This document shows positions 18,001-24,000 of a DNA stretch of 64,000 bases, one piece after another. A program made the position numbers. Within the stretch, counting starts at the first letter, position 1, and each line of letters starts with the position of its first letter. Source of the stretch: Marispirochaeta sp. GTDB taxonomy: Bacteria; Spirochaetota; Spirochaetia; JC444; Marispirochaetaceae. The DNA is taken from the NCBI GenBank assembly GCA_963676835.2, contig CAXXFF010000002.1, positions 1,088,001-1,152,000 of the forward strand. Reading direction: 5' to 3'.

Positions 18001-21000
18001 AGCCGGGTGCTGAAGATTCTCAGGAAGGAGTCCCGCCGATAAAAGAACTGGGAAGCTCAGACGGAATCCTTCAGAGTTAGAGAATCTTAGTTAAAAATAT
18101 CCTAGTCGAGACCTTCCAGTTCTTCGATCCAGAGCCTGGCATCCGCATCTGACGGCATGCGCCAGTCTCCACGGGGAGAGAGGGATATGGTTCCCACTTT
18201 GGGGCCGTCGGGAAGACAGGAACGCTTGAACTGCTGGGAGAAGAAACGGCGGTAGAAGCTTCTCAGCCATTTGAGTATTACTTCTCTGGAGTGTACCTCT
18301 GCAAATACGCTGTAGGCCAGGAGAAATACTTTCCGGGGGGCGGTTCCGCAGCGGACGGCATGGTAAAGGAAGAAGTCATGCAGTTCATAGGGGCCGATGG
18401 TATCCTCGGTCTTCTGGGCTATCTCTCCGTTTGCATCCGGGGGCAGCAGCTCCGGCGAAATGGGTGTGTCCACAATATCATGCAGGACAACTGCTGCTTC
18501 TGGAGTCGCCCAGGTTTCCGCCGCATAGCTGACCAGAAACTTCACCAGGGTTTTCGGTACTCCCGTATTAACAGCATACATGGACATATGGTCTCCATTG
18601 TAGGTACACCAGCCCAGAGCGAGTTCCGACAGGTCTCCCGTACCAATGACAATTCCGCCTACCATATTGGATTTGTTCATAAGGTGCATGGTCCGCTGAC
18701 GGGCCTGGACGTTTTCGTAAGCCGTATCTTCCGGGCGTCCGGAGTGGTTCAGATCCTGCAATTGGGTGGTGCAGATATCCCCGATGTTGATGGTTTCAAG
18801 GGGTACTCCCAGGGCCTTACTGAGTTTCTCGACATTCCCCAGGGTTCGGCCGCTGGTTCCGAATCCCGGCATGGTGTAGGCCTTGATACCGGAGATATCA
18901 AGCCCCGCCTCCCGGAAGGCTTCCACGGTAACCAGCAGGGCCAGGGTTGAGTCCAGGCCGCCGGAGAGGCCGATAACTACATTTTTACAGCCGATATGCA
19001 GGAGCCTGCTGGCAAGGCCGGCACTCTGTATTGCAAAAATCTCTCTGCAGCGGGCTTCCAGATCCGCCGAAACCGCCGGAACGAAGGGGTTGCGTGCCAG
19101 TCTTCGGTTCAGTTCCCCCGCAGATACCTGCGGAAGCTTTACAGCCACCTCTATGCGCCGGTAACGTGCTTCTGCAAGGTCCGCTCCCTGGCTGAAGGTG
19201 GTGGAATTAATTCTCTCGTGATTTATAAAATCGATGTCTATATCTGCTGTAAGCAGGGTACCTTCTCTGGAGAAACGTTCGCTCTCGGCTAAAACACCGC
19301 CGTTTTCCGCAATAATGCAATGTCCGCCGAAAACTGTGTCGGTGGTGGATTCACCTACCCCTGCAGAAGCATATACGTAGGCGGCAAGACAGCGGGCGGA
19401 CTGCTGGCGAATCAGTTCTCCCCGGTAGGCGGCCTTGCCGACCAGCTCGTTGCTGGCGGATGGGTTGAAAATTATCTGCGCCCCTGCAGTACTCTGGCTG
19501 CCGCTGGGAGGAGCGGGGGACCAGAGATCTTCACAGATCTCGATACCGAAGGTAATATCCAGGCCTGAATCCGGGGATAAACAGCTGAACAGCAGATCCG
19601 ATCCAAGGGGGATGGAGGTTCCGCCATAACGGATCTCCTCATTTTTAATCCTGCCTCCACCGGCAAACCAGCGGGACTCGTAGAATTCACGGTAGTTGGG
19701 GATAATTATTTTGGGCACAGCCCCATGGATTTTGCCGCCGCCGATAACCAGGGCACAGTTGAGGAGTCTGCCGTTAAATCGCAGCGGAAGTCCTATAATA
19801 AATATGCCCTGTATCTTTTTGGTGGCCTCTGCCAGGTATACCGCAGCGGTTTCCGCCGAGCGTAACAGGGAGTCCTGCTGAAAGAGATCGCTGCAGGTAT
19901 AGCCGGTTATTCCCAGTTCGGGAAACACGGTTATTCCAACCCCTGCTGCTGCACTTTCCTTCATCAGCTCCAGGGTGTTTTCACAGTTGAAAACTACCGC
20001 GCCGGGTTTTACCGGGGGAACCGCGGAGGCTGTACGAATATATCCAAAATCTGCTAATGATTCTTTGATGGCTGCCATGAATGCATGATAGGATGGTGGG
20101 TGCCGGGAGGTCAAGTTTCCGGAAAGAGACAGATTTATGTGGTACCCTGTGGAGTGTTTCCTTTTTTTCAGACATCTGATAGTCTGTTTGCCAACCTTGA
20201 GTCGGCCTATGGCCGAGTAGCAAAGGAGTCGTATTGATGCAGAACAGGATTTCTCCTGAGAACCTACAATATTTTTTATCTTTATATACCAGCATGTTTA
20301 CAGCCCGGGAAATAGACCGGATTGAAGAGAGTTACACCCAGCGGGGAGAAGCCTTTTTTCATGTTTCCGGCGCGGGACATGAGGCCATAGCTGCACTTGC
20401 GCAGCATCTTACTCCCGAAGACTGGCTTCACTGTCACTATCGGGATAAATCCCTGATGCTTGCCCGGGGCATGGATGCATCCATGTTCTTTCATGCACTC
20501 TTCAATAAAGATGCTTCCCACTCCCGTGGGCGCCAGATGAATGCTCATATGAGTGACCCGGCACTCAACATCCTCAGCCTGGTAGGCCCTGTGGGCAATT
20601 CGGGACTGCAGGCAGCCGGTGTAGCCCAGGCTGTGAAGGATAATGCAGGCAGTCCGGTTGTTCTCTGCTCTCTGGGGGATGGAATGAGCCAGCAGGGGGA
20701 TGTGCTGGAAGCTATTGCCCATTCTGTCCGGGCTGAGCTTCCGGTTCTCTATGTAATTCAGGATAACGGTTTTGCCATATCCACCCGTACCGGCGGCAAT
20801 ACCTTCTACCGTACTCCCGACGGACTGGCAGACAGCTTTTACGGTATCCCCATTACCCATTTCGACGGCCGTAACGCGGTGGAAGCCGACCGGGTTTTTA
20901 AAGAGACGGTTGAAAAGATGCGCAGCGATCGCCGCCCTGCTATTCTTATAATGCAGGTGGAGCGGCTTTCCAGCCATACCAATGCCGATGATCAGCGTGT

Positions 21001-24000
21001 TTACAGAAGCGAGGACGAGATTGAAGCAGCCCGCAGTACCGGTGATCCCGTGGCTATTTTGCGGGGACTTCTGCTTGAGGCAGGTGCTTCTGAGGATGAG
21101 TTTGAAGAGAAAGAGGCAGAAATACGCAAGGAGCTCGAACAGGCTGCCAGAGAGAGTCAGCTTGGACCTGAGCCTGCGGCGGTTCACGACGCAGTTAAGC
21201 CCTATCCGGAGAGCCTGAAGGCGGTTGGTGAGATAAGTGCCGTCGACGGTGAGGGTGATCCTCATACAATGATTGAAACCCTGAGGGAAACCCTTTCTAT
21301 GCGGATGGCCGATGATGAGCGGGTTATCCTTTTCGGTGAAGATATTGAAGACCCCAAAGGCGACGTTTTCGGCGTTACCCGGGGTCTTTCGCAAAAATAT
21401 CCCGGCAGGGTGATCAACTCCCCTCTGGCCGAAGCTTCCATTGCGGGAATATCCGGCGGACAGGCTCTGGCGGGAAAACGCCCGGTGGCTTTCCTGCAGT
21501 TTGCCGACTTCCTGCCCATCGCCTTCAACCAGATTATTTCCGAGCTGGGAAGTATGTACTGGAGAACCGACGGCGGCTGGGAGACGCCGGTAATTGTAAT
21601 GATCTCCTGCGGCGGCTATAAGCCCGGCCTGGGACCCTTTCATGCCCAGTCCATGGACGGCGTTGCGGTACATACCCCGGGTGTTGATGTTTTTATGCCC
21701 TCCCGGGCGGATGATGCGGCGGCCCTTCTGAATGCAGCCTTTGCATCGGAGCGGCCAACCCTCTTTTTCTATCCGAAAAATCTGCTGAACAGCCGTGATT
21801 TTGCCACAAAAAAAGATCCTGCCCAGCTGCTGCTCTCTCCCGGTAAAGCCCGGACTGTACGGGAAGGTTCTGATATTACCCTCATCGGCTGGGGAAACAC
21901 GGTGGTGCACTGTACCAGAGCTGCTGAATCCCTTGCCGCGGCCGGTGCTTCTGCGGAGGTTATTGACCTGAGAACCCTTGCTCCCTGGGACAAGGAGGCG
22001 GTTATTGCTTCTGCGTCCAAAACCGGCAAGGTAATCGTTGTTCATGAAGACAACCACAGCGCCGGCATGGGAGCTGAAGTTATCAGTACCATAGCGGAAG
22101 GCTGCAGTACTCCGGTGGAATGCCGCAGAGTAACCCGGGGCGATACCTTTGTTCCCTGTAACTTTGCCAACCAGCTTGAAGTTCTGCCAAGTTACAGCAG
22201 GGTACTTGAGGCTGCAGTGGATATGCTGGGCGGTTCTATTGTCTGGAAGAAAGAGGAAGATGAATCCGGCGAGCTCTATGGTCTTGAAGCTGTGGGCTCC
22301 AGTCCTTCCGATGAGGTTGCCACCATTATTGAATGGTTGGTGAAAGAGGGTGACTCCATTGAGGAAGGTCAGGAAGTTGCCGAACTCGAGGCGGATAAAG
22401 CCATGATCACCCTGTCCAGTCCGGTAGCCGGTGTTATCAGTTCCATCGATGTCCCCGATGGTGAGTCGGTGAATGTCGGTACGGTGATTGCAAAAGTCCG
22501 GCTTCCTCAAGGGTCGGTACGGATCAAACCTATTACCCGGGAAGAGCCGGGCACACCCGAAATCAGCGGCCTGAAAACCGGCCCCGCTGCTGCAGGTCCG
22601 GTGATGCAGACCGGAGCAGTGGCAGCCATTGCCGGTGTCCGCAGTTCTCTTGGCGGCAGATTGGTCTCCAATAAAGAGATTTCTGAACTCTGCCCCACCT
22701 GGAGTGAGGCAGACATAGTAAAGAGAACAGGTATACAGGAGCGTCACTGGGTTGGAGAAGGGGAGAATGCTGTAACCCTTACCACCGATGCCGCTTCGAA
22801 GTTGCTGGATGATATGAACATAGGTGTGGAAGAGATCGATCTGATAATCTGTTCCACCACAACTCCCTTTATGAATACTCCTGCTCTGGCAACCATGGTA
22901 CAGTATGAGCTGAATAAGAAATATGGAGCCGACTGCAGCTGTGCTGCCTACGATATAAATGCCGCCTGTTCAGGCTATGTCTACGGCTTGCAGATTGCCT
23001 ATGACTATCTGGCCCAGCGGCCGGCTGAGAAAGTGCTGGTGCTTACGGCGGATGTACTTTCCGACCGTATAGATACCGCAGATCCTTCCACTGCCCCGGT
23101 ATTCGGCGACGGTGCCAGTGCAAGCCTTGTGGTTGGATCAGGACTGATCGGATCAATAGGTAAACTTGAAGTTAAGCGGCCGGTGCTCTCTGCAAAGGGT
23201 GAAGACGGATCACTGCTGCGCATTCCGAAAGATCCCTCGGAACCGGTATTTATGGAAGGGCCAGAGGTTTTCCGCAAGGCGGTTTCCGCCATGGCAGAGA
23301 TTCTCAAGGATGCCTGCAAGGTTGCAGGAGTCAGTCCGGACGAGCTCGATCTGGTTGTTCCCCATCAGGCAAACCAGCGGATTATCGATGCGGTACGGCA
23401 GAAGCTCAGGGCGGATAAGAGCAAAGTTTACAGTCTTATTTCCGGCATCGGGAATATCTCCTCTTCAACCATTCCGTTCTGTCTGGAACGGCTGCTTGAA
23501 GAGAAACCGGAAACTGAGCTTCTCGGCCTTACAGCCTTCGGCGGCGGGTTTACCTTTGCCGGCGGAGTGTTGAAGAAAATCTGATTATTCTGAAGCTGCG
23601 GGCTGGAGATTCCGTATTATGCGGATCTCCTGCCTGGTGGCTCTGTGGCGTATTTTGAAGAAAAGTGTTTTGCTGCGTACATCGTAGACCCATCCGTCGC
23701 TGTAGCGCTGAAACTCCGGATCACTCTTCCATGGAATTCCATGCATCTGAATCTGGTCGAAGGGTTCAACATTAAACACCGCAAAATGGTGAATTCCGCC
23801 CTGGGGAAACTGAAATGAAAGCACCGAGGTATTTCCCGGCTGAAACCGTACATTTGCCGCGGTGGTCCACATCCACTCCCGGCCGGCACCGAGGTCGATA
23901 ACCCTGGGTGTATAGGATGACTCCCGGTACATTCTCAACAGATTCTCAAAGGTTTCCGGCTCCAGTACCGAAGCAGATTCCCTGGTGGCAAACTCTGTCA

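What a model noticed while it worked through the whole genome (the two positions that open the first line are those of the whole stretch)
20237..23584. Single-polypeptide 2-oxoacid dehydrogenase E1-lipoyl-FabH fusion
Gene g01854 encodes one 1115-aa protein with a branched-chain 2-oxoacid dehydrogenase E1 alpha and beta part, a lipoyl domain with the DKA lipoyl-lysine motif, a Pro/Ala/Gly linker and a complete FabH (KAS III) with its Cys-His-Asn triad, but no E2 acyltransferase core; it stands alone, away from the PDH, OGDH and acetoin complexes and from the canonical fabH. Boldest reading: the E1 part loads the acyl group of a branched 2-oxoacid on the tethered dihydrolipoyl arm and the FabH part takes it directly from the lipoyl thioester to condense with malonyl-ACP, so that iso/anteiso fatty-acid synthesis is primed without any acyl-CoA intermediate. 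New: KAS III replacing the E2 core of a 2-oxoacid d [...]
Evidence so far: Pfam rows: E1_dh 18-313, Transket_pyr 344-518, Transketolase_C 536-647, Biotin_lipoyl 695-753, ACP_syn_III 905-967, ACP_syn_III_C 1028-1113; Swiss-Prot: 42% to Thermus 2-oxoisovalerate DH beta over 344-660, 37% to FabH over 796-1113 full length; motifs read in the sequence: EADKAM, NAACSGY, VPHQAN, GNISSS; no 2-oxoacid_dh domain in it, three E2/E3 sets elsewhere (g02125-7, g03081-4, g03369-71), canonical fabH g02700 in the fab operon, two lipoate ligases; same six-domain architecture in nearly all of the best 120 of 1480 hits, all named ones Spirochaet* incl. Spirochaeta thermophila; no paper with FabH+2-oxoisovalerate dehydrogenase+fused.
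(Added by a program. Inside this text positions count along the whole contig: contig position 1,088,001 is position 1 of the stretch shown here. "Call 12" and the like, gene names such as g00115 and contig names such as C1 are that model's own, and its searches are not shown. The text may have been shortened before it was handed on; [...] marks where a part breaks off. The agent that wrote the report below was given it as the finding of a first reader that could run no searches.)

Follow-up and report, generated by a model that had tools for sequence, protein, structure and literature searches.

The report
Keto-acid decarboxylase fused to fatty-acid starter
One real bacterial protein joins the enzyme that decarboxylates keto acids, its lipoic-acid swinging arm and the enzyme that starts fatty-acid chains, and comparative evidence suggests that it starts branched membrane fatty acids without the usual coenzyme A step, which has not yet been tested biochemically.

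Summary
Confirmed: window 20237-23584 (+) is one 1115-aa ORF, E1alpha-E1beta-lipoyl-KAS III, with no E2 core and no E3-binding domain.

All catalytic residues are conserved. The two residues that stack the CoA adenine in FabH (Trp32, Arg151) are absent from 306 of 306 fused KAS III domains. Stand-alone FabH keep them (53 of 53 and 52 of 53).

The E1 is branched-chain-type by motif and best structural hit. It groups with E1s of streptogramin-type clusters (isobutyryl starter). In one betaproteobacterial family, 30 of 30 genomes carry the fusion as their only alpha2beta2 E1, and the cultured member Aquella oligotrophica makes 36% iso-C15:0. Carriers mostly lack genes for branched acyl-CoA catabolism.

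Best reading (0.6): the acyl group goes 2-oxoacid to lipoyl arm to KAS III cysteine to malonyl-ACP, priming iso/anteiso fatty acids without acyl-CoA.

Against: no biochemistry; all 23 carriers checked have E2 cores elsewhere; a separate lipoyl-KAS III family keeps Tyr32/Arg151; no fatty-acid data for the host genus.

No description found in three targeted paper searches. The scan noted this family before in at least ten other windows.

The parts
20237..23584 (+). Whole gene, 1115 aa (P0001): E1alpha-E1beta-lipoyl-KAS III
   Evidence: AlphaFold2 model mean pLDDT 92.9, pTM 0.75
20222..20228 (+). Ribosome-binding-like site AAAGGAG, 8 nt before the ATG
   Evidence: read in the sequence
20288..21175 (+). 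E1alpha domain (aa 18-313)
   Evidence: PF00676 E 6e-42; best PDB hit Thermus branched-chain E1alpha, 130 bits
20528..20548 (+). GRQMNAH motif (aa 98-104), shared in form with Thermus GRQMPEH and human GRQMPVH branched-chain E1; the host's PDH has GKGGSMH
20675..20767 (+). ThDP/Mg-binding motif G147-D-G149...N177
   Evidence: G147, G149 and N177 in 184 of 184 full-length members
20975..20977 (+). His247, aligned to Thermus E1alpha His273
   Evidence: 184 of 184; alignment
21266..22177 (+). E1beta domain (aa 344-647) with Glu399 and His469
   Evidence: PF02779, PF02780; Glu399 and His469 in 184 of 184; 41% to Thermus E1beta
22286..22501 (+). Lipoyl domain (aa about 684-755); Lys721 at 22397-22399
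   Evidence: K721 in 184 of 184 and 119 of 119; the 20 best PDB hits but one are 2-oxoacid dehydrogenase lipoyl domains
22502..22621 (+). Tether (aa 756-795): a KPxTRExPG segment conserved in the near set, then a variable flexible linker; no E3-binding domain
   Evidence: pLDDT under 50 at 785-792; 36-88 aa across members
22622..23581 (+). KAS III domain (aa 796-1115): Cys911, His1043, Asn1046, Arg1048, Asn1073, Phe1101
   Evidence: all six in 189 of 189; passes NF006829, fails TIGR00747; TM-score 0.93 over Aquifex FabH
22712..22714 (+). Asp826 at the place of E. coli FabH Trp32 (CoA adenine stacking)
   Evidence: D169, E14, no aromatic in 189; D114, no Trp in 117
23084..23086 (+). Pro950 at the place of E. 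coli FabH Arg151 (CoA adenine stacking)
   Evidence: Arg in 0 of 189 and 0 of 117

Best explanation
A stand-alone, CoA-independent primer synthase for branched-chain fatty acids. (1) The E1 part decarboxylates a branched 2-oxoacid on ThDP and reductively acylates lipoyl-Lys721 (by homology; substrate class inferred). (2) The arm hands the acyl group straight to Cys911 of the KAS III domain, which takes the place of the E2 core (inferred; the new step). (3) KAS III condenses it with malonyl-ACP to a branched 3-ketoacyl-ACP for FAS II (by homology). (4) An E3 borrowed from another complex reoxidises the arm (inferred). The ordinary FabH of the fab operon primes the straight chains.
For: Catalytic residues of all three parts are conserved. 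Trp32 and Arg151 stack the CoA adenine (PMC4606726, passages seen). They are absent from 189 of 189 and 117 of 117 fused KAS III domains, but present in 30 of 30 spirochaete stand-alone FabH, in 23 and 22 of 23 from other phyla and in the 5 PDB alignments shown. Arg249 is kept in 189 of 189 and 116 of 117. Phe87 is Thr/Ser/Ala and the Arg196 loop is deleted, which by recalled FabH structure points to a wider acyl pocket. E1alpha scores best on branched-chain E1 (Thermus 130, human 107 bits) over PDH (92, 76). It groups with support 100 with E1s of streptogramin-type clusters and with single-chain E1-lipoyl-E2 proteins; the streptogramin A starter is isobutyryl (PMC6963833, PMC9636800, passages). 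In the family of G065, 30 of 30 genomes have the fusion plus a stand-alone FabH and no other alpha2beta2 E1; in the order, 3 of 121 have it, all from that family. Aquella oligotrophica carries it and has 36.2% iso-C15:0 (PMC6612550, passages and Table 3). Acyl-CoA dehydrogenase: 0 of 9 spirochaete carriers. Butyrate kinase: 1 of 28 carriers. No strong full-length carboxyltransferase of the MCC/PCC type in 28. In G030 the fusion is the only KAS III, and fabH is missing from an otherwise intact fab operon in mid-contig.
Against: No biochemistry. All 23 Spirochaetia carriers have E2 cores elsewhere, as do 5 of 5 Aquella-family genomes checked, so transfer to CoA in trans is possible. The spirochaete branch of the separate lipoyl-PSBD-KAS III family keeps Tyr32 (57 of 57) and Arg151 (56 of 57), so a lipoyl tether does not require loss of the site. 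New aromatics appear at position 28 (Trp in 174 of 189; Tyr/Phe/His in 85 of 117) and 151 (Phe in 111 of 117) and might rebuild a nucleotide site. Lys214 and Lys256 of the recalled ACP patch are mostly lost. Pseudomonas putida branched-chain E1alpha scores lowest (60 bits). The His104 position is Gly in 23 of 119. No characterised branched-chain E1 was in the trees, and the Streptomyces rows were chosen as best hits. The fatty-acid link for this fusion rests on one cultured species; G070, whose fusion is identical to that species' protein, has one 402-aa acyl-CoA dehydrogenase. I found no fatty-acid data for the host genus, Marinobacter halodurans, Accumulibacter or planctomycete carriers, lineages I recall as mostly straight-chain. 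The fusion has no E3-binding domain.
Confidence: 0.6

Rival explanations
1. Same direct lipoyl-to-KAS III chemistry, but the substrate is not mainly a branched 2-oxoacid (pyruvate, 2-oxobutyrate or another), or it varies by lineage, and the product is a straight- or odd-chain primer or a special lipid.
For: The fusion is the only KAS III in G030 and G016, which have FabD and FabF, so it may be a general initiator there. Substrate-pocket motifs vary (GRQMNAH, GRQMVIG, GRRMPGF). No curated E1 model passes its cut-off.
Against: GRQM-type motif and best hits to branched-chain E1; relatives tied to an isobutyryl starter; iso-C15:0 in Aquella with no other alpha2beta2 E1 and no POR-type enzyme in G070; no conserved biosynthetic neighbours across phyla.
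Confidence: 0.17
2. The fusion only co-locates two ordinary enzymes: a foreign E2 moves the acyl group from the arm to CoA, and the KAS III domain uses acyl-CoA as FabH does.
For: Every carrier checked has E2 cores elsewhere. Arg36 is kept in 175 of 189, and aromatic residues at 28 or 151 could form another adenine site.
Against: Trp32 and Arg151 lost in 306 of 306, with an acidic residue nearly fixed at 32. The same acidic change occurs in the Opitutaceae-type lipoyl-PSBD-KAS III (Glu32 in 56 of 58, Arg151 in 0 of 58). KAS III sits where the E2 core sits in related single-chain E1-lipoyl-E2 proteins.
Confidence: 0.12
3. The KAS III domain is only a transacylase that moves the acyl group from lipoyl to holo-ACP (or CoA) without condensation, like the E2-type transfer to ACP in the Qnc/Scl systems; FabF then elongates.
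For: It occupies the E2 position; related E1s work with lipoyl-E2cat-ACP modules.
Against: His244, Asn247, Asn274 and Phe304 are invariant in 189 of 189 and 117 of 117; from recalled knowledge, KAS III-like transacylases change the triad. Catabolic use of a CoA product is unlikely given.
Confidence: 0.08

Closest known systems
Branched-chain 2-oxoacid dehydrogenase complex (E1alpha2beta2/E2/E3) plus FabH, the textbook route to iso/anteiso fatty acids (stated for Akkermansia in PMC9328018, passages seen)
   Same: Branched-chain-type E1 motifs, lipoyl-lysine arm, KAS III with Cys-His-Asn, same predicted end product.
   Different: One chain; no E2 core and no E3-binding domain; the KAS III lacks the CoA-adenine residues, so no acyl-CoA intermediate is predicted.
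Streptogramin A-type starter loading: fused E1alpha-beta gene before a PKS/NRPS that begins lipoyl-E2cat-ACP-KS (plasmids NZ_CP107872.1, NZ_CP061282.1, NZ_CP109590.1; cluster type inferred from gene content)
   Same: Nearest non-fusion E1 among 763 plasmid records (37-39% identity); same clade; a lipoyl arm feeding a chain-building enzyme; isobutyryl starter per two papers.
   Different: Keeps an E2-type acyltransferase and loads a PKS ACP; secondary metabolism. Here KAS III replaces that acyltransferase.
QncN/QncL/QncM (quinocarcin) and SclQ1-4 (scleric acid) (PMC6335953, passages seen)
   Same: ThDP enzyme to lipoyl arm to a thiol carrier other than CoA.
   Different: Ketose donor, glycolyl unit, E2-type acyltransferase domain present, embedded in NRPS clusters.
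Lipoyl-PSBD-KAS III proteins ('type II'; Salinispira pacifica, Spirochaeta lutea, Ereboglobus luteus), also uncharacterised as far as my searches go
   Same: KAS III in place of the E2 core behind a lipoyl domain.
   Different: Separate E1 gene, often an E3-binding domain, separate KAS III and E1 clades; the spirochaete branch keeps Tyr32/Arg151.

Membership tests
FabH (KAS III, acyl-CoA:malonyl-ACP) | Cys-His-Asn triad and thiolase-type fold | tested here: met
   C911/H1043/N1073 invariant; TM-score 0.93 over 2ebd
FabH (KAS III, acyl-CoA:malonyl-ACP) | CoA adenine site Thr28/Trp32/Arg151 | tested here: not met
   Trp32 and Arg151 in 0 of 306, against 53 of 53 and 52 of 53 controls
FabH (KAS III, acyl-CoA:malonyl-ACP) | Curated family score | tested here: inconclusive
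   NF006829 259.5 over 249 passes; TIGR00747 231.3 under 292.1 fails
FabH (KAS III, acyl-CoA:malonyl-ACP) | ACP-docking basic patch (residue list recalled) | tested here: inconclusive
   Arg249 189/189, Lys/Arg257 188/189, Ala253 184/189 kept; Lys214 and Lys256 mostly lost
FabH (KAS III, acyl-CoA:malonyl-ACP) | Uses acyl-CoA and malonyl-ACP | not testable with these tools
   needs enzyme assay
Branched-chain 2-oxoacid dehydrogenase complex | ThDP-dependent alpha/beta E1 with intact catalytic residues | tested here: met
Branched-chain 2-oxoacid dehydrogenase complex | Branched-chain-type substrate pocket | tested here: inconclusive
   F41/Y68/M101/H104/H247 align with Thermus F66/Y95/M128/H131/H273 (their role as pocket residues is recalled); beta Tyr86 is Phe here; H104 varies in other clades
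Branched-chain 2-oxoacid dehydrogenase complex | E2 acyltransferase core making acyl-CoA | tested here: not met
   no PF00198 in the protein or its neighbours
Branched-chain 2-oxoacid dehydrogenase complex | Peripheral subunit-binding domain and own E3 | tested here: not met
   no PF02817; the three E3 genes lie with the other complexes
Lipoyl (not biotinyl) domain | Asp-Lys-Ala-type turn and likeness to E2 lipoyl domains | tested here: met
   DKA in most of the near set, S/T/D-K-S/A in the proteobacterial set, Lys invariant; best PDB hits are E2 lipoyl domains. Lipoylation itself not tested.
Qnc/Scl or streptogramin-type E1-lipoyl-AT-ACP loading systems | E2-type acyltransferase, dedicated ACP and PKS/NRPS context | tested here: not met
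   none in the gene or its neighbours

The most novel reading that the evidence does not exclude
A widespread, undescribed class of lipoyl-dependent ketosynthase initiates fatty-acid synthesis directly from 2-oxoacids with no acyl-CoA. It arose at least twice by swapping the E2 acyltransferase for KAS III (this single-chain type, and the lipoyl-PSBD-KAS III type). It explains iso/anteiso membranes in lineages without a conventional branched-chain dehydrogenase, and it is the only KAS III in some genomes.
Probability: 0.55. Interest if true: 0.85.

Novelty: new variant of a known kind. Interest (0 to 1): 0.75.

Why it matters
The textbook route to branched fatty acids needs acyl-CoA made by E2. 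A ketosynthase that takes its primer from a lipoyl thioester would be a new enzyme activity and a new way to start fatty-acid synthesis, present in several phyla. It would explain 36% iso-C15:0 in a betaproteobacterial family that has no other alpha2beta2 E1. It would also give a one-gene part for making branched chains in engineered hosts. One purified protein can test it.

Tried and rejected
Assembly or frameshift artefact: rejected. The apparent split in G052 is a run of N in the assembly.

Biosynthetic operon: rejected. The recurring neighbours among 77 loci are a divergent aconitase (35 loci), mixed SDRs (32 loci, low mutual identity) and housekeeping genes; outside spirochaetes the neighbours sampled are unrelated.

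Genomes with the fusion but no E2: none among 23, so this test does not discriminate (53 of 65 genomes have E2). E3 is in all 23 but also in 55 of 65.

Promoter/terminator scan: at chance level. Sequencing runs: no RNA holder listed; no reads were laid. ESM Atlas returned only clusters of the same architecture.

No complex prediction of lipoyl domain with KAS III was obtained, so docking is untested.

Papers: three searches for a description of the fusion gave 15, 2 and 1 listings, none about it by title or abstract start. Searches for fatty-acid data on the host genus, S. thermophila, Fangia and Cysteiniphilum found none usable. The primary pristinamycin and bkdAB papers were not seen. The Lacunisphaera paper shows iso/anteiso acids in Opitutaceae, but I did not test whether those species carry type II.

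Trees: the KAS III tree is the quick tree on 75 sampled rows. The E1 tree has 36 rows (13 dropped, 5 added), and row L189 was cut wrongly and is to be ignored.

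
Full report
OBSERVATION. Window 20237-23584 (+) is one open frame of 1115 aa. 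Pfam finds E1_dh, Transket_pyr, Transketolase_C, Biotin_lipoyl, ACP_syn_III and ACP_syn_III_C in that order, and no E2 catalytic or E3-binding domain. The gene is a single unit between a divergent nadE and a convergent ORF that ends at the next base. An AlphaFold2 model from 135 sequences has mean pLDDT 92.9; the only low-confidence stretch is 785-792, in the linker before KAS III. Foldseek finds only the separate parts in the PDB.

HOST. The genome (4.43 Mb, 97% complete) has a PDH that passes curated cut-offs, an OGDH, a third E1/E2/E3 set with an 818-aa E1 and an E2-less 724-aa E1; none is named a branched-chain dehydrogenase. A stand-alone fabH lies in an ACC-fabH-fabD-fabG-fabF-fabV cluster. 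There are three LplA/LipB-type genes, two class IV aminotransferases, one PFOR and one KorA-size subunit, no acyl-CoA dehydrogenase and no butyrate kinase. The closest named relatives are Marispirochaeta (93% and 73%).

FAMILY. 119 of the best 120 hits carry all six domains in each of two searches. Named carriers include Spirochaeta thermophila, Marinobacter halodurans, Ca. Accumulibacter, Aquella oligotrophica, Fangia, Cysteiniphilum, Facilibium, Fastidiosibacter and Caedibacter, and MAGs of at least six other phyla. In Spirochaetia it is patchy: 18 of 41 genomes, and at least 23 of 65. Neighbours are not conserved across phyla.

CATALYTIC RESIDUES. In 184 full-length members (of 197 collected; proteins and loci overlap, and kin are not independent) G147, G149, N177, H247, E399, H469 and K721 are invariant. 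In 119 further, mostly proteobacterial, members all hold except one H469. In 189 plus 117 KAS III domains the E. coli positions C112, H244, N247, N274 and F304 are invariant, and R249 is kept in all but one.

COA SITE. PMC4606726 (passages seen) places the CoA adenine between Trp32 and Arg151, with a hydrogen bond to Thr28. In the fusion, position 32 is Asp or Glu in 183 of 189 and Asp in 114 of 117, never Trp; position 151 is never Arg. Controls: 30 of 30 spirochaete stand-alone FabH keep both (the best hits to the host FabH, so related). 23 from other phyla keep Trp in 23 and Arg in 22, and the five PDB alignments shown keep both. Against over-reading: aromatic residues often appear at 28 or 151 in the fusion, and Lys214 and Lys256 are also lost. 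Phe87 is Thr/Ser/Ala and the Arg196 loop is deleted, which by recall of FabH structures fits primers larger than acetyl.

SUBSTRATE. E1alpha scores 130 bits on Thermus and 107 on human branched-chain E1, 92 and 76 on PDH, and only 60 on P. putida branched-chain E1. It shares GRQMxxH with the first two; the host PDH has GKGGSMH. The nearest non-fusion E1s among 763 plasmid records lie in Streptomyces clusters whose gene content is streptogramin-like. The next gene begins lipoyl-E2cat-ACP-KS in 3 of 3. Two papers (passages seen) give isobutyryl as the streptogramin A starter, and one cites a bkdAB study that I did not see. Two verrucomicrobial genomes have a single-chain E1alpha-E1beta-lipoyl-E2cat. 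These three groups form one clade with support 100 in a quick IQ-TREE run of 36 rows; FastTree on 44 rows, without the E1-lipoyl-E2 proteins, joined the other two. This suggests, as inference without a tested root, that KAS III replaced an E2 core. No characterised branched-chain E1 was in the trees.

PHYSIOLOGY. In the family of G065, 30 of 30 genomes of at least 85% completeness have the fusion (2 partial) and a stand-alone FabH, and none has another alpha2beta2 E1 at E 1e-12. In the order, 3 of 121 sampled genomes have it, all of that family. A. oligotrophica carries it. Its description lists iso-C15:0 at 36.2% and names the fatty-acid profile among the traits that set it apart from other Neisseriaceae (PMC6612550, passages and Table 3). 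G070, whose fusion is identical, has two E2 cores and no POR-type enzyme. Among 28 carriers, acyl-CoA dehydrogenase hits occur in 0 of 9 spirochaetes and 13 of 19 of that family, nearly all in FadE-size frames of about 800 aa; G070 has one of 402 aa. No strong full-length MCC/PCC-type carboxyltransferase was found, and butyrate kinase occurs in 1 of 28. So the role looks anabolic. In G030 (96% complete) the fusion is the only KAS III, and the fab operon lacks fabH in mid-contig; in G016 it is also the only clear KAS III. This is one cultured data point. Branched acids in Fangia and Cysteiniphilum are my recall only, and no profile of the host genus was found.

A SECOND SOLUTION. A separate family has lipoyl-(E3-binding)-KAS III as its own gene (115 full-length of 120 hits). 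An E1alpha-beta gene is adjacent in 4 of 4 spirochaete loci and in 0 of 3 Opitutaceae-type loci. Its KAS III and E1 form clades apart from the fusion's. The Opitutaceae-type branch has Glu32 in 56 of 58 and no Arg151, converging on the fusion's pattern. The spirochaete branch keeps Tyr32 (57 of 57) and Arg151 (56 of 57), which weakens the argument that a lipoyl-fed KAS III must lose the site. Its carrier Salinispira pacifica has iso-C15:0 11.7% and anteiso-C15:0 4.3% (PMC4511686, passages and supplement 2).

MECHANISM. By homology: ThDP decarboxylation and reductive acylation of Lys721; decarboxylative condensation at Cys911/His1043/Asn1073. Inferred: branched substrates, direct hand-over from arm to Cys911, malonyl-ACP as acceptor, a borrowed E3, and a dimer that satisfies both the E1 and the KAS III symmetry. 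Odds: 0.6 for the whole reading, 0.17 same chemistry with another substrate, 0.12 detour through a foreign E2 and CoA, 0.08 transacylase only. All 23 Spirochaetia carriers have E2 cores elsewhere, so the detour cannot be excluded by absence.

NOVELTY. It works like a branched-chain dehydrogenase plus FabH in one chain, but fails membership of both on defining features (no E2 core; no CoA-adenine site). The known lipoyl-to-ACP systems (Qnc/Scl; the streptogramin-type module) keep an E2-type acyltransferase. Three searches of the held library found no description; subscription journals and bioRxiv supplements were not seen. The scan has noted this family in at least ten other windows. Those are unchecked AI notes and not support; one is marked 'part of it fell' without detail. 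Verdict: real, apparently undescribed, a new variant of known parts with a probable new reaction; interest 0.75.

Noticed in passing
L082:6783-10304 (G036:C5); also L122-L124, L180-L182: Second family: lipoyl-PSBD-KAS III gene, next to an E1alpha-beta gene in spirochaetes and alone in Opitutaceae-type genomes; separate origin.
   Followed up: yes
L190:13923-, L191:13975-, L193:11967-: The streptogramin-type PKS/NRPS begins lipoyl-E2cat-ACP-KS right after a fused E1, which suggests CoA-free starter loading; the review passages I saw say isobutyryl-CoA.
   Followed up: partly
L221:4272-7409, L222:2962-6351: Single-chain E1alpha-E1beta-lipoyl-E2cat proteins (1045 and 1129 aa) in two verrucomicrobial genomes.
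   Followed up: partly
L091:7042-12543 (G000:C3): 1833-aa single-chain acetyl-CoA carboxylase (BC-BCCP-CT), divergent from fabH.
   Followed up: no
L129:9809-11983 (G000:C2): 724-aa fused E1alpha-beta with no E2 or lipoyl gene in 16 kb, near an SDR and a LarA-type isomerase.
   Followed up: no
L200 (G036:C27) and L157 (G026:C126): E1alpha and E1beta followed by a lipoyl-only ORF of 83-85 aa.
   Followed up: no
L151, L152 (G016:C36, G052:C4): fab-like cluster with FabD, two ketosynthases, two SDRs and a 409-aa weakly FabH-like ORF; may be a beta-branching-type cassette (not tested).
   Followed up: no
35 of 77 loci, and L086: Aconitase divergent from the fusion gene in many spirochaetes, but not in this window.
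   Followed up: partly
window 20282-22747 (-): 821-aa antisense ORF with no Pfam hit; probably a shadow of the real gene.
   Followed up: partly
window 23585-25426 (-): 613-aa ORF with no Pfam or NCBIfam hit; its stop codon abuts the fusion's with no gap.
   Followed up: no
window 13318-15663 (-); 34336-34740 (-); 35121-35516 (-): DNA polymerase II (family B) and two PIN-domain genes.
   Followed up: no
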